A DNA stretch of 64,000 nt, taken from positions 714,681 through 778,680 of the forward strand of contig MHCJ01000003.1 in the NCBI GenBank assembly GCA_001816585.1. Direction: 5' to 3'. This DNA is from Candidatus Chisholmbacteria bacterium RIFCSPHIGHO2_01_FULL_52_32. Lineage in GTDB: Bacteria > Patescibacteriota > Microgenomatia > UBA1400 > Chisholmbacteraceae. This document shows, piece by piece, positions 4,377 to 63,679 of the stretch (positions within the stretch are counted from its first letter, which is position 1; every line of letters starts with the position of its first letter). The notes beneath the pieces were generated by a model. It did no database searches and had not been told where the DNA came from. It saw nothing but the letters and a program-made list of their open reading frames with translations. Both the position numbers and the translations under genes were made by a program.

Positions 4377-5810
4377 ATGATCGCTTTCTCTTTACCCTCG
4401 TTGGTCGTTCGCATTCTTTCTACACTGCACGAAGCTGGCTTTCAAGCCTACGTTGTCGGCGGTGCAATCCGTGACCTTATCCAGCAAAAGGAGGTCTATG
4501 ATTGGGATTTCACCACCGATGCGGTGCCTGATGAAATCATGAAACTGTTTTGGGAAAGTTTTTACGATAATACGTTCGGAACCGTACGCGTTTCCGGCAA
4601 GCATCTTGCCATTCAATTTGAGCAACCATCGTTGGGATCGGAGGATATGCTGTTTGATATCACCACCTTCCGAACCGAACACGGGTACAGCGACCGACGC
4701 CGGCCCGACCGGGTGGTGTGGGGGAAAAACCTTGAGGAAGATCTGTCCAGACGGGATTTTACGATCAACGCACTTGCGCTTAAACCCCAGTCGGACGAAG
4801 CGCTGGCGAAAGCCTTGAAAATGGTGAGGGTCTCTCCTGAAGTTTCCCTCGATACCGAGATTATTGATCTGTTTCAGGGTCAAGCAGACCTGGCACGGAA
4901 ACTCATACGGACCGTCGGCGATCCGAACATGCGTTTTAATGAGGATGCCCTGCGGATGATACGGGCAATCCGCATCGGTTCCCAGCTCGCCTTTTTCATC
5001 GAGGAAAAGACACTCACCGCCATTCAGCAGAATGCAAAGCTTCTGACGCATATCAGCTGGGAGAGAATCCGGGACGAGCTCCTGAAACTTTTCGCCTCAC
5101 CTTTTCCCGCGGACGGCGTGATGCTCCTTCATTCTTCCGGTCTTCTTCAATACATCTTGCCTGAGCTTATGGCGGGGCAGAAGATTCCCCAGGCCGGACA
5201 CCACATCTATGACGTTTGGACCCATTCCATTGAAAGCCTGCGCGGATGCCCCTCCACTGACCCAATTGTCCGGCTGGCAACCTTGCTTCACGATATCGGG
5301 AAGCCCCGGACTTTCCGACAGACGAACGGAAAGATTACCTTTTACAACCATGAGGTTGCCGGCGCGACGATCGCTCGGACAATTGCCCTGCGCTTGCGGC
5401 TTTCCAAAGCCCAGACGGAGAAGCTCGTGACGTTGGTGCGCTGGCATATGTTTGCCTACGCTCCGACAATGACCGATGCGGCAATCAGGCGGTTTATCCG
5501 AAGGGTCGGTATTGTCAATATCAACGATATGATGCTGCTTCGGGTGGGAGACAGAAAGGGCGGAGGGAGTAAGGCAACCTCGTGGAGACTGACGGAACTG
5601 CAGCGCCGGGTCGGTGAGCAACTCTATGAACCCCTGACCGTGAGGGATCTTAAGATTGACGGGCATGATGTGATGGAAGTCCTGAAAATCGGGCCGGGAC
5701 CAAAGGTCGGAGAAATCCTCAGCGTACTGTTTGAGGAAATCATGGAAGAAACGAAAAAGAACACGCGGGAGTATCTTTTGGAGAGAATTAAGGAGTTGGG
5801 TCAAAAATAA
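4377..5810 (+). CDS. cca: CCA-adding tRNA nucleotidyltransferase with HD domain
   Basis: PolyA-polymerase head domain (VVGGAIRDLI) and an HD motif (LLHDIGKP), 477 aa. A TATAAT -10 lies at ~4352. Confidence 0.85.
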   Translation: MIAFSLPSLVVRILSTLHEAGFQAYVVGGAIRDLIQQKEVYDWDFTTDAVPDEIMKLFWESFYDNTFGTVRVSGKHLAIQFEQPSLGSEDMLFDITTFRTEHGYSDRRRPDRVVWGKNLEEDLSRRDFTINALALKPQSDEALAKALKMVRVSPEVSLDTEIIDLFQGQADLARKLIRTVGDPNMRFNEDALRMIRAIRIGSQLAFFIEEKTLTAIQQNAKLLTHISWERIRDELLKLFASPFPADGVMLLHSSGLLQYILPELMAGQKIPQAGHHIYDVWTHSIESLRGCPSTDPIVRLATLLHDIGKPRTFRQTNGKITFYNHEVAGATIARTIALRLRLSKAQTEKLVTLVRWHMFAYAPTMTDAAIRRFIRRVGIVNINDMMLLRVGDRKGGGSKATSWRLTELQRRVGEQLYEPLTVRDLKIDGHDVMEVLKIGPGPKVGEILSVLFEEIMEETKKNTREYLLERIKELGQK

Positions 5811-5830
5811 TTTTTTCCTCTGCAGTTGAC

Positions 5831-5965
5831 TTAAGGGCCAAGGGTTTAGGGCGCAGGGTATGGGGAGAGGAAGTTAGAGGAGGTTAGAGGGGATTAGGGC
5901 CCCAGTGAGATAGGGCGGAGCCCATCTCACGGGGTCAGGGAGAAGTAAAGGGTGGTTAAGGGGGG
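5831..5965 (+). repeat. intergenic G-rich octamer array (TTAGGGC, TTAGAGG units) plus conserved hairpin module, copy 1
   Basis: gggtttagggcgcagggtatgggg...gaagttagaggaggttagaggggattaggg is followed by the hairpin CCCCAGTGAGATAG-GGCGGAGCC-CATCTCACGGGGTCAGGGAGAAG at ~5901-5945. The region is the convergent junction of cca and secF. Confidence 0.8.
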
Positions 5966-6847
5966 TTAGGATTTTCTGCGCTTGAAATTCTCCCAAATCA
6001 CGAGTAAGGGCGCAGCGGTAAAAGTAGAACTATAGGTGCCGGTTACGGTTCCGATCAGGAGGGCCGTGGCGAACCAGCGGATGGTCACGCCGCCAAACAA
6101 TAGGAGAGCGGTAAGCATAAAGATAATGGTTAACGAGTTATTGAGGCTTCTTCCCAAGGTTTCGGCCACCGCTAAGTTCACAATCTCTTCATAGTGTGCC
6201 TGCGGATGACGTTTCCGGGATTCACGGATCCGATCATAGACCACAATCGTGTCATGCACGGAAAACGAGAGGATGGTTAAGACCGCCGTGACAAAAAGGG
6301 TATCCACCTCAACACCCAGAAAATGTCCGAGGAGACTGAAGGATCCTAAAATCACGAGCGTGTCATGGAACATTGCAAGGATCGCGCAGATGCCGTACTT
6401 CAGTTCTTTGAATCGGTACGCCACATAGATGAGTATCAGCAAAGCTGCTATGACTACCGCCATGACTGTTTTTTGTAAAAGCTCCCTGCCTATGGTCGGT
6501 CCCACCGATTCAAATCGCCTTTCCACGACTCCTCCAAGCTGTTCTTTTACTCTATCGGTGAAGGCGAGCTTTTGGTCTTCGGAGATCGGTTTGGTGCGCA
6601 ACATCACCGTTCCTTCGCCGGTCTGTTGAACCGCGTAAACCTCGACGTCTTGGCCCACCAGATCCCGGAGTGCCGATTCTGTGACCTGTTTACCTTCGTG
6701 CGGCTGAATTTCAAGCTCAATGAGGGCTCCGCCGGTAAAATCAATTGCAGGCCGTAATCCGAATCGAACCAGAGACCAGGCGCCCGGAAGAATCACCGCG
6801 AGAGAGAGTGCGAAGTAAAGCAGTTTAAAACGCATGAATCGTATCAT
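5966..6847 (-). CDS. secF: protein translocase subunit SecF
   Basis: SecF-like polytopic sequence. The start MIRFMRF overlaps the secD stop (ATGA) at ~6847, so the track ORF 5966..6895 extends into secD. Confidence 0.85.
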   Translation of the reverse strand: MIRFMRFKLLYFALSLAVILPGAWSLVRFGLRPAIDFTGGALIELEIQPHEGKQVTESALRDLVGQDVEVYAVQQTGEGTVMLRTKPISEDQKLAFTDRVKEQLGGVVERRFESVGPTIGRELLQKTVMAVVIAALLILIYVAYRFKELKYGICAILAMFHDTLVILGSFSLLGHFLGVEVDTLFVTAVLTILSFSVHDTIVVYDRIRESRKRHPQAHYEEIVNLAVAETLGRSLNNSLTIIFMLTALLLFGGVTIRWFATALLIGTVTGTYSSTFTAAPLLVIWENFKRRKS

Positions 6848-10519: not shown

Positions 10520-10680
10520 AGTTAAAAAGTGAAAAGTCCCTCCTTCGCATTTACGGCTTCAAGCAGACTGCTTATTCAGCCGTTTCCTGAGCCGAATGCT
10601 TCGGCGGGCAAGTAAAAGTTAAAAGTCAAGAAATAGAATCTCAAAGTTAATAGTCAAAAGTTCAAGGATCTTTGTTGTTG
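10520..10680 (+). repeat. A-rich octamer repeat array (GTTAAAAGT, GTGAAAAGT, GTCAAAAGT units) with an embedded GCCGAA-TGC-TTCGGC hairpin
   Basis: gttaaaaagtgaaaagtcc ... gtaaaagttaaaagtcaagaaatagaatctcaaagttaatagtcaaaagttcaagg. This is the same unit family seen at 27062-27160 and 58412-58465. Confidence 0.7.
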
Positions 10681-21204: not shown

Positions 21205-21270
21205 AGAATGTTAGAGGATTATAGAGGAGATTAGAGGACAGTAGAGGAAATTACCGGAAGGGATGTTAAG
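21205..21270 (+). repeat. octamer array (GTTAGAGG, TTATAGAGG, GATTAGAGG, CAGTAGAGG), copy 2
   Basis: gaatgttagaggattatagaggagattagaggacagtagaggaaattaccggaagggatgttaag, immediately upstream of the comM start. Confidence 0.75.
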
Positions 21271-27061: not shown

Positions 27062-27160
27062 GAATAAAAAGTTAAAAGTTAAGAGTTAAAAGTCTAAAGT
27101 TATTAAATACGAATCAAATAGTTAAAAGTGAAAAGTGAAAAGTAAGATATCAACGTCTCC
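27062..27160 (+). repeat. A-rich octamer array (GTTAAAAGT, TAAGAGT, GTGAAAAGT units), pilB-pilC intergenic
   Basis: aaaaagttaaaagttaagagttaaaagtctaaagttattaaatacgaatcaaatagttaaaagtgaaaagtgaaaagtaag. Confidence 0.75.
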
Positions 27161-42623: not shown

Positions 42624-42671
42624 GAAGTTTATTCTACCATGAAGCTTGACGGACTTTGGGGATGCAGGGAG

Positions 42672-42830
42672 AGACAGAAAGGAGGGTTAGAGGAGCTTTG
42701 AAGGTTTGGGGGGGTTCCCCAGTGAGATAGGCAAGCCATCTCACGGGGTCAGAGAGAAGTTAAGGGTGATTAAGGGTAGTTAAGGGTCAATAAGGGTGAC
42801 TAAGGGTGTGGAGGAAGGATTCCACAAAGG
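42672..42830 (+). repeat. repeat element copy 3: partial octamer units, conserved hairpin (42717-42751), then five phased TAAGGGT units
   Basis: ccccagtgagatag-gcaagc-catctcacggggtcagagagaag, then ttaagggtgattaagggtagttaagggtcaataagggtgactaagggtgtggaggaagg. The unit spacing is ~10-11 bp. Confidence 0.85.
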
Positions 42831-43112: not shown

Positions 43113-43261
43113 GGCGCTCCTGACAGATTAGTAATAAAAAACTAAAAGAATACGGAGAACAGTAATAATTTTCTCAAACAGAAATCATGAGTATAGTATT
43201 CACTTTTAACCTATACATCAAGCTAAACTGCAAGTCAATGGGGGAATGGGAAGAGCATTAG

Positions 43262-43400
43262 CGTTTAGCGTCTAGGGTTTAGGGTATAGGGTATAGAGAG
43301 AGGAGGAGAGAGGGGGAGGTTAGAGGATATTAGAGGAGGGAGGTTAAGGGTCGATAAGGGTGACTAAGGGTGTGGAGAGAAGGGTTCCGCAAAACGGGGT
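43262..43400 (+). repeat. repeat element copy 4: GGGTTTAGGGTATAGGGTATAG, then TTAGAGG units, then a ~75-nt block homologous to 42760-42836
   Basis: ...ttaagggtcgataagggtgactaagggtgtggagagaagggttccgcaaaacgggg closely matches ttaagggtcaataagggtgactaagggtgtggaggaaggattccacaaaggggggg in copy 3. Confidence 0.85.
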
Positions 43401-49183: not shown

Positions 49184-49370
49184 TTTTTCCTCCTTTCTTC
49201 ATTAAATCACAGAAGGAAGTCATGGTACAATTGCAAGACGACGGGGAGTAGTATACCGGCAGTACACGCGCATGGGGTGCGCGTAGAGGGAGTTCAATTC
49301 TCCCCTCCCCGACATAGGTAGACATACGCCCGAAAAGACTGCGTGCTTAAGAAGTATAGAAGGTGTTTTT

Positions 49371-50114
49371 ATGAGCGTCAGACGATCCCGATACCTGTAC
49401 TCTCCCTCTTCAGCCTCTCCCTTTAAGATCAGCCGATCGAAGATTGATTTATACCTTACATGTCCCAAATGCTTCTATCTTGACCGGAGACTTGGGATTT
49501 CACGCCCCTCATTTCCAACGTTCAGCCTCAACTTGGCGGTGGATGTGCTGCTCAAAAAAGAGTTTGACCTGCTTCGGCAGACGAGACAGCCGCATACGCT
49601 CATGAAACAATACCGGATTAACGCCATACCTTTTGCGCATCCGGAGCTTGAGGTTTGGCGCAACAATTTTCGGGGAAAACAATACCATCATCGGGGTACG
49701 AATCTCGTTATCACCGGCTCGGTTGATGATATTTGGGTCAACCCGGAAGGTGAGCTTCTGATTGTTGATTACAAATCGACAAGCACGGAGAAGGAAATTT
49801 CTTTAGACGATGAATACAAACAGGGGTACAAAAGGCAGCTTGAGGTTTACCAATGGATTTTTCGGCAAAGCGGATTTCCGGTTTCCGATACCGGGTACTT
49901 CGTGTTTGCCAATGCCGGGAAAAACCGGCCGTCGTTTGACGGGAGATTGGAATTTGAACTTTCGATTGTTTCTCACCGCGGCAATGATACCTGGGTTGAG
50001 CCGACTGTTGAAGCCATCAAAAAGTGTTTGGATTCAGATGAGTTGCCCGCCTCGGGAAAAGAGTGCGAGTATTGCCAATACCGGGAAGCTGTGGGTGGAG
50101 AGTTGAGGGAGTAG
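49371..50114 (+). CDS. PD-(D/E)XK nuclease, Cas4/RecB-nuclease-domain-like, standalone
   Basis: D...ELLIVDYKS is the PD-(D/E)XK motif II/III. An N-terminal Cys (CPKC) plus C-terminal CEYCQY give a Cas4-like Fe-S cysteine arrangement. 247 aa. Confidence 0.55.
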   Translation: MSVRRSRYLYSPSSASPFKISRSKIDLYLTCPKCFYLDRRLGISRPSFPTFSLNLAVDVLLKKEFDLLRQTRQPHTLMKQYRINAIPFAHPELEVWRNNFRGKQYHHRGTNLVITGSVDDIWVNPEGELLIVDYKSTSTEKEISLDDEYKQGYKRQLEVYQWIFRQSGFPVSDTGYFVFANAGKNRPSFDGRLEFELSIVSHRGNDTWVEPTVEAIKKCLDSDELPASGKECEYCQYREAVGGELRE

Positions 50115-50220
50115 AGGGAAGAAAATTAGAGGATATTAAAGGATATTAGAGGAACTTGGAGGAAGTTAGAGCCCCAGTGAGATAGTACTTCGTACATCTC
50201 ACGGGGTCAGAGAGAAGATA
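50115..50220 (+). repeat. repeat element copy 5: TTAGAGG-type units plus conserved hairpin (50171-50207)
   Basis: agggaagaaaattagaggatattaaaggatattagaggaacttggaggaagttagag, then ccccagtgagatag-tacttcgta-catctcacggggtcagagagaag. The region is a convergent junction. Confidence 0.85.
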
Positions 50221-51959: not shown

Positions 51960-52070
51960 AGAAGAGAAAGGGTTGTGGGTAGAGGGTAGAGAGGGGAGGT
52001 TAGAGGATATTAGAGGAAGCTAAGGGTAAATTAAGGGTGAGTAAAGGGAGGAGAAATAGGGTAGAGGCGG
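51960..52070 (+). repeat. repeat element copy 6 (GGTAGAGG, GTTAGAGG, TAAGGGT units)
   Basis: gggtagagggtagagaggggaggttagaggatattagaggaagctaagggtaaattaagggtgagtaaagggaggagaaatagggtagagg. Confidence 0.8.
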
Positions 52071-55370: not shown

Positions 55371-55883
55371 TTAAATCTTTCTTTCCTCTTTTATCACCGG
55401 TGGATTGGGTGCAGGGTTCTTTAGGTTTTCTTTCTTTCCCTTGTCCTGTTTCGCCGGAGCTTCGGAGGATAAATCTTTTTTCGAGTCCGGCTTTGATTCT
55501 TTGTCTTTCCTGGCTTGTTCTTGTCTTTTCTTCTCGATCAGCTCTATTCGTACCAGCATGGCATTGTCTCCCCGCCGTTCTCCAACACGGATGATTCTTG
55601 TAAAGCCGCTCACCCTGTCCCTGAACCTTGGCCCAAGTTCATCGACGATTTTATTCACTGCCTTTTTATTCTGTAGAAATGCGGCAATGGTGCGGCGGAC
55701 ATGGAGTGTCCCTTTCTTTCCGCTGGCAATGAGACTATCGGCCAAGCCTTTGATTGCCTTGGCTTTGCTTTCCGTTGTTTGAATTTCCTCCTTCATCACT
55801 AAGCTTGTGATGAGGTTTTTAAACAACGATTTTCTCTGTTTTATATCGCGGCTGAATTTCTTTCCGAATACTCTATGGCGCAT
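55371..55883 (-). CDS. rplQ: 50S ribosomal protein L17 with ~55-aa K/E-rich C-terminal extension
   Basis: The true start is MRHRVFGKKFSRD. The track start at 55916 reads through the upstream octamer repeat (MPKPYTLNPIP is encoded by ggaatagggtttagggtatagggtttaggcat). Confidence 0.85.
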   Translation of the reverse strand: MRHRVFGKKFSRDIKQRKSLFKNLITSLVMKEEIQTTESKAKAIKGLADSLIASGKKGTLHVRRTIAAFLQNKKAVNKIVDELGPRFRDRVSGFTRIIRVGERRGDNAMLVRIELIEKKRQEQARKDKESKPDSKKDLSSEAPAKQDKGKKENLKNPAPNPPVIKEERKI

Positions 55884-55925
55884 AGGAATAGGGTTTAGGG
55901 TATAGGGTTTAGGCATTAGGGGGGA
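55884..55925 (+). repeat. repeat element copy 7 (GGGTTTAGGGTATAGGGTTTAGG) directly abutting the rplQ start codon
   Basis: ggaatagggtttagggtatagggtttaggcattagggggg. No Shine-Dalgarno lies between the repeat and the ATG. Confidence 0.8.
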
Positions 55926-63648: not shown

Positions 63649-63679
63649 AGAGAGATAGGGTATAGGGTATAGGAAATAG
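63649..63679 (+). repeat. repeat element copy 8 (AGAGAGATAGGGTATAGGGTATAGG) filling the whole rpsH-rplF spacer
   Basis: It lies between the rpsH stop (63680) and the rplF ATG (63648), and no Shine-Dalgarno is present. Confidence 0.8.

What the first reader, a model, noticed from the sequence alone, without database searches (positions are those of the whole stretch)
5831..5965. Modular intergenic repeat family with a conserved hairpin whose loop co-varies to extend the stem (three copies)
The same module occurs at about 5901-5945, 42717-42760 and 50171-50215: CCCCAGTGAGATAG-[loop]-CATCTCACGGGGTCAG(A/G)GAGAAG. Both arms are invariant over ~39 nt. The loops differ (GGCGGAGCC, GCAAGC, TACTTCGTA), but each is itself self-complementary (GGC/GCC, GC/GC, TAC/GTA). 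The pairing is therefore kept while the sequence changes. Compensatory change of this kind argues for selection on the folded structure rather than on sequence alone. Copies 1 and 5 sit at convergent gene junctions and copy 3 between hup and the ABC operon. No U-tract follows on either strand, so it is not a canonical intrinsic terminator. It could be an RNase III or processing site, a protein-binding hairpin, or a REP-like element specific to this lineage.
Basis: seen in the sequence. Interest (0 to 1): 0.8.

Follow-up and report, generated by a model that had tools for sequence, protein, structure and literature searches.

The report
Tiny mobile hairpin shared across phyla
The three hairpins are real, but they are copies of a roughly 36-base palindromic insertion element found in many candidate-phyla-radiation and planctomycete genomes, sometimes in frame inside essential genes, so they resemble the REP elements of E. 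coli more than a lineage-specific regulatory RNA.

Summary
Three exact copies of CCCCAGTGAGATAG-[variable]-CATCTCACGGGGTCAGRGAGAAG lie on the + strand at 5900-5945, 42717-42759 and 50172-50217. Each folds into a hairpin with two bulged A's and sits among purine-rich 10-nt tandem repeats.

"Specific to this lineage" is wrong. The same 23 arm bases occur in 68 loci from Patescibacteria, Planctomycetota and Verrucomicrobiota. Homology between loci is the hairpin plus about 4-8 bases on its 3' side.

The element behaves as inserted DNA.
- A 36-nt copy sits in frame in atpD, uvrC, a glycosyltransferase and an ELP3-like gene.
- uvrC shows filled and empty alleles with no target duplication.
- Two of the three window copies are missing from the same spacers in relatives.

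The apical region pairs more than chance predicts, but 22 of 52 variants barely pair, so this is a tendency and not a rule.

Two results argue against inert junk. The arms are 23/23 identical where flanking coding DNA is 70-78% identical. Orientation relative to transcription differs between intragenic and post-stop copies.

Best reading: a REP-like miniature palindromic element lacking the GTAG/CGTC tag, transcribed here as a 3'-UTR hairpin. The mobilising enzyme was not found. I rate it a new variant of a known kind.

The parts
5900..5934 (+). Hairpin copy 1: CCCC-A-GTGAGAT-A-GGGC GGA GCCC-ATCTCAC-GGGG. It lies 31 nt downstream of the SecF stop on the - strand and 89 nt downstream of the CCA-enzyme stop on the + strand.
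5935..5945 (+). Conserved 3' tail TCAGGGAGAAG. The first 4 nt correspond to the tetranucleotide tail of the wider family.
5831..5899 (+). 5' purine-rich block with degenerate repeats of about 10 nt (..GAAGTTAGAGGAGGTTAGAGGGGATTAGGG).
5946..5968 (+). 3' purine-rich repeats of about 10 nt (TAAAGGGTGGTTAAGGGGGGTTAGG).
42717..42748 (+). Hairpin copy 2 (apex GGCAAGCC). It lies 88 nt downstream of the hup stop and 94 nt upstream of the ABC ATPase start, both on the - strand.
42749..42759 (+). Tail TCAGAGAGAAG.
42662..42716 (+). 5' purine-rich block (GGGAGAGACAGAAAGGAGGGTTAGAGGAGC..GGGGGGGTT).
42760..42808 (+). 3' tandem array TTAAGGGTGA x 4.9.
50172..50206 (+). Hairpin copy 3 (apex GTACTTCGTAC). It lies 14 nt downstream of the stop of the 573-aa - strand ORF and 57 nt downstream of the PD-(D/E)XK gene stop on the + strand.
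50207..50217 (+). Tail TCAGAGAGAAG.
50100..50171 (+). 5' tandem array (ATTAGAGGAT-type, period 10, about 4.7 copies, plus GAGTAGAGG).

Best explanation
The three hairpins are copies of a very small palindromic insertion element: 30-40 bp, with a canonical unit of a 32-nt hairpin plus a 4-nt tail. It is the same kind of thing as REP sequences and other 'very small mobile repeats'.

Shown:
- The unit that recurs between genomes is only the hairpin plus about 4-8 nt on its 3' side.
- It has entered unrelated sites, including the reading frames of essential genes, as an exact 36-nt block without target-site duplication.
- Copies are present or absent at orthologous sites.
- The basal stem with its two one-sided bulges is conserved in sequence, while the apex is free but tends to stay paired.

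Inferred:
- It is recognised as a folded single strand by a strand-specific enzyme supplied in trans. The most plausible candidate is an HUH/Y1-type (RAYT- or IS200-like) nuclease-transposase. The bulged bases and the tetranucleotide next to the stem foot (CAGG, CAAG, TAAA, or TCAG in this window; CCTG, CTTG, TTTA or CTGA on the T-bulge strand, placed 5' of the stem like GTAG in REPs) would give strand and cleavage-site specificity.
- In this window all three copies lie 14-88 nt downstream of the stop codons of minus-strand genes (SecF, hup, 573-aa ORF). They would therefore be transcribed as U-bulged 3'-UTR hairpins. As with REPs, their likely consequence is a stable 3' stem-loop that buffers mRNA 3' ends, not a U-tract terminator.

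The purine-rich 10-nt arrays around them are a separate feature of Chisholmbacteria intergenic DNA, and the hairpin sits inside them.
For: Distribution and unit size:
- Identical arms occur in 68 loci of many Patescibacteria, Planctomycetota and Verrucomicrobiota MAGs.
- Homology between loci is confined to the hairpin plus a few 3' bases.

In-frame 12-aa 'PSEIxxxSHGxx' insertions:
- They occur in AtpD, UvrC, a glycosyltransferase, an ELP3-like protein and a GatB N-terminal fragment.
- All of these have a 32-nt hairpin plus 4 nt, giving 36 nt.

UvrC survey:
- 12 closest clusters carry the 12 aa between ..GTKS and KHQ... About 105 others are contiguous at that point.
- At DNA level the empty allele reads AGC|AAA and the filled allele reads AGC-CCCAGTGAG...GGGGTAAAT-AAA, with no flanking duplication. 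One lineage is decaying.
- GatB reads GLEIH|12 aa|VEL, again with no duplication.

Orthologous spacers of relatives lack both the hairpin and the 10-mers:
- The hup-ABC spacer is 49 nt in the relative and 213 nt here.
- The CCA-SecF spacer is 83-90 nt in relatives and 155 nt here.

Family behaviour:
- Planctomycete genomes contain nested and partial copies.
- CPR (candidate phyla radiation) loci contain head-to-head dimers of opposite orientation, like BIMEs (bacterial interspersed mosaic elements).
- Stems covary.
- Both strands fold stably.

Against: - No GTAG or CGTC tag, which defines the described REP superfamilies.
- No Y1/HUH transposase or any recurrent transposase among 300 ORFs within about 4 kb of the hairpins, nor in the window. 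However, only families matched by 2 or more of those ORFs are certain to have appeared in the output, and the rest of each genome could not be searched.
- Copy number is low in CPR genomes: 3 per 64 kb here and usually 1-2 per 8-kb locus.
- Identical arms across phyla are unlike REPs, which are lineage-specific.
- Different copies in one genome have unrelated apices but perfect arms. In uvrC the arms are 23/23 identical while flanking coding DNA is 70-78% identical. Simple copy-and-decay does not predict this. It points to in-situ constraint or gene conversion.
- No transcript data exist, so the 3'-UTR role is pure inference.
Confidence: 0.6

Rival explanations
1. The hairpin is primarily a functional RNA element. 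It would be a U-bulged stem-loop in mRNA 3' or 5' UTRs, such as a binding or processing site for an RNase or RNA-binding protein, a 3'-end stabiliser, or a factor-dependent terminator. It would be kept by selection in place, and its insertion history would be secondary.
For: - In CPR loci the T/U-bulge strand is the sense strand for 14 of 19 copies lying within 45 nt of a stop codon. All 5 independent intragenic copies have the opposite orientation (Fisher p = 0.006).
- All three window copies fit this pattern, at 31, 88 and 14 nt after minus-strand stops.
- Several U-bulge hairpins end directly at a Shine-Dalgarno sequence plus start codon, as ..CACUGGGG-AGGUGAuuuugAUG.
- At the orthologous nrdH-like locus of L042 and L055, the partner hairpin differs by three compensatory pairs.
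- The arms are conserved beyond the flanking coding DNA.
Against: - Copies sit in frame inside atpD and uvrC, and 12 copies lie in divergent promoter regions.
- Copies are absent from orthologous spacers of relatives.
- No Rfam family matches.
- Almost no G-U versus A-C asymmetry exists to identify an RNA strand.
- In compact CPR genomes any intergenic element lies close to a stop or a start.
- The orientation counts are small.
Confidence: 0.3
2. It is a DNA-level protein-binding site acting together with the phased 10-nt repeats. Examples would be an iteron-like or nucleoid-organising module, or a cruciform bound by a host protein.
For: - The 10-bp period of the flanking arrays equals one helical turn.
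- Arrays and hairpins are all on one strand across the window, and the same holds in L034.
- E. coli BIMEs are known to bind IHF and gyrase (background in PMC8266576 and PMC3733652).
Against: - Outside Chisholmbacteria the hairpin occurs without the arrays.
- In the window the arrays occur without hairpins.
- Intragenic copies exist.
- No protein candidate was found.
Confidence: 0.07
3. It is a classical MITE or the end of a known insertion sequence: terminal inverted repeats mobilised by a DDE transposase.
For: - The two arms are inverted repeats of 12-14 nt.
- Some planctomycete copies lie at the edge of a longer repeat of about 550 nt.
Against: - No target-site duplication at the two sites where the boundaries can be read.
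- Its 30-40 bp is far below MITE size.
- No transposase is linked.
- There are no hits in viral contigs or plasmids.
- The longer planctomycete homology is not contiguous with the hairpin in all loci.
Confidence: 0.04
4. It is a canonical intrinsic terminator, a chance palindrome, or an assembly artefact.
For: A GC-rich stem lies at convergent gene junctions.
Against: - No T-tract on either strand.
- 0 of 100 shuffles give any match.
- The same insertion occurs in independently assembled data sets with diverged flanks.
Confidence: 0.01

Closest known systems
REP / REPIN sequences mobilised by RAYT (TnpA_REP) Y1 transposases (E. coli, Pseudomonas, Stenotrophomonas)
   Same: - Imperfect palindrome of 20-40 nt, with a conserved lower stem, a functionally required bulge and a non-specific upper half.
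- A tetranucleotide adjoining the stem foot.
- Mostly extragenic and downstream of genes, occasionally in frame inside genes.
- Inverted dimers.
- No linked transposase at most copies.
   Different: - No GTAG or CGTC tag.
- Identical stem across phyla, whereas REPs are lineage-specific.
- Low copy number in CPR genomes.
- No RAYT identified.
- Two single-base bulges on one strand instead of the AA/GC mismatch.
Subterminal hairpins of IS200/IS605 elements (IS608, ISDra2) and their miniature derivatives (PATEs)
   Same: - Imperfect hairpin with an extrahelical base used for strand-specific recognition.
- Insertion without target duplication.
- A tetranucleotide 5' of the stem foot acting as guide (PMC8266576).
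- From my own recollection, the IS608 hairpin also has a CCCC/GGGG foot with a bulged T next to it.
   Different: - A single hairpin instead of distinct left and right ends.
- No tnpA or tnpB nearby.
- No conserved target tetranucleotide could be read from the flanks.
Rickettsia palindromic elements (RPE)
   Same: Palindromic selfish DNA inserted in frame into functional protein-coding genes and tolerated as a short extra peptide.
   Different: - RPEs are about 100-150 bp and restricted to Rickettsia.
- This element is 36 bp and spans phyla.
Cyanobacterial small dispersed repeats (SDR4-6; Elhai et al. 2008, Genome Res 18:1484, cited from the reference list of PMC3116915; the content is my recollection because the paper is not held)
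   Same: - Mobile repeats far below MITE size.
- Hairpin-forming.
- Nested in one another.
- Inserted into otherwise conserved sequence.
- Mobilising enzyme unknown.
   Different: Different sequence and a different host phylum. Sequence relatedness was not tested here.
Integron attC sites
   Same: Recognised as a folded single strand, with extrahelical bases on one strand giving polarity, conserved basal boxes and a variable terminal structure that is often self-complementary.
   Different: - No RYYYAAC/GTTRRRY core.
- Much shorter.
- Not in cassette arrays.
- No integrase context.

Membership tests
REP (RAYT-associated repetitive extragenic palindrome) | Short (20-40 nt) imperfect palindrome that forms a stem-loop with an irregularity in the stem | tested here: met
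   30-40 nt, 12 conserved pairs and two single-base bulges
REP (RAYT-associated repetitive extragenic palindrome) | Conserved unpaired GTAG (or CGTC) tetranucleotide at one end | tested here: not met
   The tails are CAGG(C), CAAG, TAAA or TCAG (CCTG, CTTG, TTTA or CTGA on the other strand). The 5' flanks show no consensus. Definition taken from PMC3733652 and PMC8266576.
REP (RAYT-associated repetitive extragenic palindrome) | A cognate RAYT/Y1 transposase gene in the genome, often flanked by REPs (a REPtron) | tested here: inconclusive
   None was seen among 300 ORFs near hairpins in 58 loci, though only families matched by 2 or more ORFs are certain to have been listed. A crude HUH+Y motif screen of the loci and the window also found none. 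Whole genomes could not be searched.
REP (RAYT-associated repetitive extragenic palindrome) | High copy number, mostly extragenic, frequent inverted dimers (BIME/REPIN) | tested here: inconclusive
   There are 3 copies in 64 kb here, and at least 10 loci in one Sedimentisphaerales MAG. Inverted dimers occur in 6 CPR loci but not in the window.
MITE (DDE-transposase derived) | Terminal inverted repeats flanked by a target-site duplication; usually 50-500 bp | tested here: not met
   The exact 36-nt insertions in uvrC and gatB have no duplicated flank. Size is 30-40 bp.
IS200/IS605 end or PATE | Distinct left- and right-end hairpins, insertion 3' of a fixed tetra- or pentanucleotide, and tnpA or tnpB in full copies | tested here: not met
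   Single hairpin unit, no consensus in the flanks and no tnpA or tnpB seen. The absence of a target duplication is shared with this family.
Intrinsic (Rho-independent) terminator | GC-rich hairpin followed directly by a U-tract | tested here: not met
   No terminator-like site coincides with any hairpin on either strand.
Any curated Rfam RNA family | A score at or above the family's gathering threshold | tested here: not met
   0 hits in the window at gathering threshold. At E up to 10 over 5780-6000 only chance-level hits appear.
Integron attC | R''/R' core sites (RYYYAAC ... GTTRRRY) and location in cassette arrays | tested here: not met
   The sequence has no such cores, and copies are solitary between housekeeping genes.

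The most novel reading that the evidence does not exclude
The hairpin is the substrate of a strand-specific nucleic-acid enzyme system that has not been described and is shared by Patescibacteria and the PVC phyla (Planctomycetota, Verrucomicrobiota). Candidates are a new clade of HUH/RAYT-like enzymes or an RNA-processing factor. The system would keep the 23 stem bases identical across phyla and even inside reading frames, would make the U-bulge strand incompatible with coding sequence, and would spread a 36-bp element, the smallest class of autonomous-looking insertion, between very distant bacteria.
Probability: 0.35. Interest if true: 0.8.

Novelty: new variant of a known kind. Interest (0 to 1): 0.62.

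Why it matters
CPR bacteria are usually described as nearly free of mobile DNA. A 36-bp hairpin that inserts without target duplication would add a new REP-like system outside the Proteobacteria, especially one that sits in frame in atpD and uvrC and is shared letter for letter with Planctomycetota. It would also give a concrete handle for finding its enzyme, which could be useful as a strand-specific ssDNA tool. It is a marker of gene flow or shared machinery between CPR and PVC bacteria. For annotation, it explains 12-residue 'PSEI...SHG' inserts in otherwise conserved proteins. It also warns against reading such hairpins as gene-specific regulatory RNAs.

Tried and rejected
Searches that found nothing:
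- Rfam at gathering threshold and at permissive E-values: nothing.
- Literal sequence search of the literature: only unrelated primers.
- Exact-arm scan of viral contigs: 0 hits.
- blastn against plasmids: 0 hits.
- Metagenome scan with the window-specific right arm plus tail: 3 matches, of which the one inspected (L075) is window copy 2.

Leads that failed:
- A protein cluster recurring next to planctomycete copies looked like a candidate transposase. It has no Pfam match and is the translation of an 11-nt tandem repeat.
- Pfam scans of 300 ORFs flanking the hairpins showed only housekeeping families among those matched by 2 or more ORFs.
- Crude HUH+Y motif screens found nothing.
- A conserved target motif or target-site duplication was looked for in the flanks and not found.
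- G-U versus A-C asymmetry, which could name the functional strand, gave too few informative pairs.
- Group II intron domain V, BHB (bulge-helix-bulge) introns, DNA uptake sequences, attC sites and CRISPR repeats were compared by eye and rejected on anatomy.
- The Elhai 2008 and Barabas 2008 papers could not be read.

Full report
1. THE OBSERVATION

The pattern CCCCAGTGAGATAG-N(3-15)-CATCTCACGGGGTC occurs exactly three times in the window, all on the + strand, at 5900, 42717 and 50172. None of 100 dinucleotide-preserving shuffles gives any match. Searching the right arm plus tail with up to three mismatches returns the same three sites. A covariance model built from the family and run with filters off finds no other copy in the 64 kb.

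The hairpins span 5900-5934, 42717-42748 and 50172-50206. Each is followed by TCAG(G/A)GAGAAG. As single-stranded DNA they fold at -10.3 to -14.8 kcal/mol (z -4.7 to -5.6) on either strand. The structure is CCCC/GGGG, then a bulged A, then GTGAGAT/ATCTCAC, then a second bulged A, then a G-C pair and a variable apex that adds one to three further pairs (two to four counting the G-C).

No T-tract terminator coincides with any copy.
- Copy 1 lies between the CCA-adding enzyme (+) and SecF (-).
- Copy 2 lies between hup (-) and an ABC ATPase (-).
- Copy 3 lies between a PD-(D/E)XK nuclease (+) and a 573-aa ORF (-).

The flanking 'modules' are real tandem arrays with a 10-nt period (TTAGAGGAnn, TTAAGGGTnn).

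2. WHERE THE WINDOW COMES FROM, AND HOW FAR THE HAIRPIN REACHES

The window matches a 1.16-Mb contig of a Rifle groundwater CPR genome (GCA_001816955.1, MHCM01). Its closest named relatives are Candidatus Chisholmbacteria.

A scan of one genome per GTDB species for CCCCAGTGAGAT-N(4-34)-ATCTCACGGGG returned 68 loci. They come from:
- many Patescibacteria lineages (Berkel-, Sacchari-, Kaiser-, Woese-, Wolfe-, Jorgensen-, Harrison-, Colwell- and Chisholmbacteria, and Paceibacterota);
- many Planctomycetota (Sedimentisphaerales, Phycisphaerae, Pirellulales);
- two Verrucomicrobiota;
- two bins labelled Gammaproteobacteria. One of these (L042) shares neighbouring genes with Patescibacteria contigs and is probably mislabelled.

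The element is therefore not lineage-specific. All-against-all comparison of 600-nt flanks shows that what is shared between loci is the hairpin plus about 4-8 nt on its 3' side. That short 3' tail comes in a few types: CAGG(C), CAAG, TAAA and, in the window, TCAG. Rfam has no matching family. Viral contigs and plasmids have no copy. The literature searches found no description of it.

3. IT IS INSERTED DNA

In L067 the hairpin lies inside a 471-aa ATP synthase beta subunit, read through in frame as ..MAEYFRDGGTGG-PSEIEMQSHGAG-KDVLFFMDNVFRF... The same reading, PSEIxxxSHGxx, interrupts four other genes: UvrC in two species, a glycosyltransferase, an ELP3-like radical-SAM protein and a GatB N-terminal fragment (GLEIH|PSEIKNQSHGAS|VEL). 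In every such case the hairpin is 32 nt and the block is 36 nt.

A survey of the 120 closest UvrC homologues gives filled and empty alleles. The 12 clusters most similar to the query carry exactly 12 extra residues between ..KPVGTKS and KHQ... About 105 others read ..GTKS-KHQAAKIEFN.. without interruption.

At the DNA level the empty allele is AAA AGC|AAA CAT. The filled alleles are AAG AGC CCC AGT GAG ATx AAA ATC xxA TCT CAC GGG GTA AAT|AAA CAC. There is no duplicated flank, and one lineage (L084) is decaying (GCC GGT ...). This was one insertion in an ancestor, inherited vertically.

For the window copies themselves, the orthologous spacers of relatives are short and lack both the hairpin and the 10-mers:
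- The hup-ABC spacer is 49 nt in a relative whose ABC protein is 86% identical, against 213 nt here.
- The CCA-SecF spacer is 83 and 90 nt in relatives at 72% and 71% identity, against 155 nt here.

Planctomycete genomes add nested and partial copies, such as CCCCAGTGAGATAA[CCCCAGTGAGATAACGC..GGGGCAGG]CGTTTCACTATCTCAC. Several CPR loci carry two hairpins of opposite orientation placed back to back. This behaviour belongs to REP-like and very small mobile repeats, not to a gene-specific regulatory RNA.

4. THE CO-VARYING LOOP

On 70 distinct family members the 12 modelled pairs are 98.7% paired, and 7 pairs show double (compensatory) changes, such as GTTAGAT/ATCTAAC, ATTAGAT/ATCTAAT and TCCC../..GGGA. 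None of 500 shuffles reaches these values, and shifted registers collapse. This alignment was fitted to the model and most sequences were selected by an exact-arm pattern, so the weight rests on about a dozen variants.

For the apex, 52 distinct variable regions average 1.92 closing pairs against 1.17 +/- 0.11 in shuffles (0 of 1000 shuffles reach this). However, 22 of the 52 have at most one pair, and these include the A-rich apices of intragenic copies. In the Sedimentisphaerales subfamily the apical pair switches C-G to T-A, with C.A intermediates.

Hairpin stability could matter for a folded DNA strand just as well as for RNA.

5. TWO RESULTS THAT ARGUE AGAINST INERT JUNK

(a) In uvrC of three species the 23 arm bases are identical, while the surrounding 101 coding bases are only 70-78% identical. 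The apex shares 6-8 of 9 bases, so the copies are homologous by descent. One species has switched its tail from GTAAAT to GCAGGC, which is the other canonical tail type. This needs either sequence-level constraint or gene conversion from other copies.

(b) Orientation depends on context. All five independent intragenic copies have the A-bulge strand as sense, although the other strand leaves two of three frames open. Among CPR copies lying within 45 nt of a stop codon, the T/U-bulge strand is sense in 14 of 19 cases (Fisher p = 0.006; p = 0.008 using only ORFs of at least 120 aa). The three window copies follow this pattern, at 31, 88 and 14 nt after the stops of the minus-strand SecF, hup and 573-aa genes.

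Some U-bulge hairpins run straight into a Shine-Dalgarno sequence and start codon. At the orthologous nrdH-like locus of L042 and L055, the partner hairpin differs by three compensatory pairs.

The numbers are small, and CPR spacers are short enough that anything intergenic lies near a stop or a start. Still, an effect at the RNA or transcription level is a serious possibility and not exclusive of a mobile origin. E. coli REPs are also both.

6. MECHANISM

I commit to the following reading. This is a REP-like miniature palindromic element, recognised as a folded single strand by a strand-specific enzyme acting in trans.

The anatomy matches what is known for Y1/HUH enzymes (PMC8266576):
- TnpA_REP and IS200/IS605 transposases read irregularities in the stem. 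The REP bulge is required for activity, and IS608 flips out an unpaired T.
- They use a tetranucleotide 5' of the stem foot.
- They tolerate any upper stem.
- They act on one strand only.
- Insertion without target duplication, which I saw here, is a property of that family, from established knowledge of IS200/IS605.

On the T-bulge strand the element reads 5'-(CCTG/CTTG/TTTA/CTGA)-CCCCGTGAGAT-..-T-ATCTCAC-T-GGGG, the same layout as GTAG plus palindrome.

The enzyme itself is not shown. No Y1 transposase or other recurrent transposase lies within about 4 kb of the hairpins, and none lies in the window. Whole genomes could not be searched with the tools left. The element also fails one defining REP feature, the GTAG/CGTC tag. 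I therefore file it as 'works like a REP' and not as a member of the described REP superfamilies.

In the window, its likely consequence is a stable U-bulged stem-loop at the 3' ends of three minus-strand transcripts. This step is inferred only.

7. THE FLANKING MODULES

Purine-rich arrays with 7- and 10-nt periods fill at least ten spacer segments of the window, always G/A-rich on the + strand, with or without a hairpin. The related Chisholmbacteria locus L034 shows the same arrays around four to five hairpins, all on one strand. Hairpins in other phyla lack these arrays.

The 'modular' look is therefore two independent things that share spacers in this lineage. What the arrays do remains unexplained.

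8. VERDICT

'REP-like' and 'not a terminator' hold. 'Lineage-specific' does not hold, and loop pairing is not a strict rule.
- Novelty: a new variant of a known kind. It is a tag-less, cross-phylum, 36-bp REP-like element.
- Interest is moderate to high. Identical sequence in Patescibacteria and the PVC phyla, in-frame residence in essential genes, conservation above that of coding sequence, and context-dependent orientation are all unexpected and directly testable.

Noticed in passing
window 21211-21253, 43258-43372, 51969-52048, 55883-55921, 63655-63673 (also 10613-10662 and 27067-27153): Many intergenic spacers are filled with short tandem arrays. Period 10 units are TTAGAGGAnn and TTAAGGGTnn, period 7 units are TTAGGGT and AGGGTAG, and A-rich AAAAGTT units also occur. 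The G-rich ones are always purine-rich on the + strand. The related Chisholmbacteria locus L034 shows the same arrays, but they are absent from orthologous spacers of more distant relatives. Their function is unknown. The 10-bp phasing suggests a protein array or DNA bending.
   Followed up: partly
window 43258-43296: TTAGGGT repeated about 5.6 times. This is a telomere-like sequence capable of forming a G-quadruplex, located between hup and the RNase Y gene.
   Followed up: no
L010 1430-2000, L049 3346-3950, L037 7070-7750 and six further planctomycete loci: A second repeat family of about 500 nt lies upstream of some planctomycete hairpins. It is built around 11-nt TTGGSTTTGWA arrays. It translates into spurious ORFs ('FMQNKANF..MNVNKVLTKDY..KANSKPIKAN') that cluster like a protein family but have no Pfam match.
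   Followed up: partly
L009 7550-7680: A diverged duplicate of the first ~17 codons of gatB carries the hairpin insertion (MTESKYTLTVGLEIH-PSEIKNQSHGAS-VEL*). It sits directly upstream of, and overlaps, the start of the intact gatB gene.
   Followed up: partly
L082 uvrC, 5 nt directly 3' of the hairpin at 758-789: The orthologous uvrC copy has the tail GCAGGC where sister species have GTAAAT, although the apex is shared. The tail has switched between the two canonical types, which hints at gene conversion between copies.
   Followed up: partly
L079 545-760: An insertion of about 170 nt after hup in a Chisholmbacteria relative is flanked by a 21-nt direct repeat of the hup 3' end (GAGAAAAGCAGTCTGGTAAAC). 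It does not contain the hairpin.
   Followed up: no
L042 3938-4003, L052 1367-1429, L055 1476-1544, L071 3773-3836, L063 1315-1379, L066 2635-2714: Back-to-back dimers occur, with the canonical hairpin abutting an inverted hairpin that has a variant stem (ATTAGAT, GTTAGAT, GTTTGAT, GTGGGGT). This resembles a BIME or REPIN. In L022 one hairpin is nested in the loop of another.
   Followed up: partly
window 49242-49313: tRNA-Pro (GGG) lies on the + strand, directly upstream of the PD-(D/E)XK nuclease gene that precedes hairpin copy 3.
   Followed up: no
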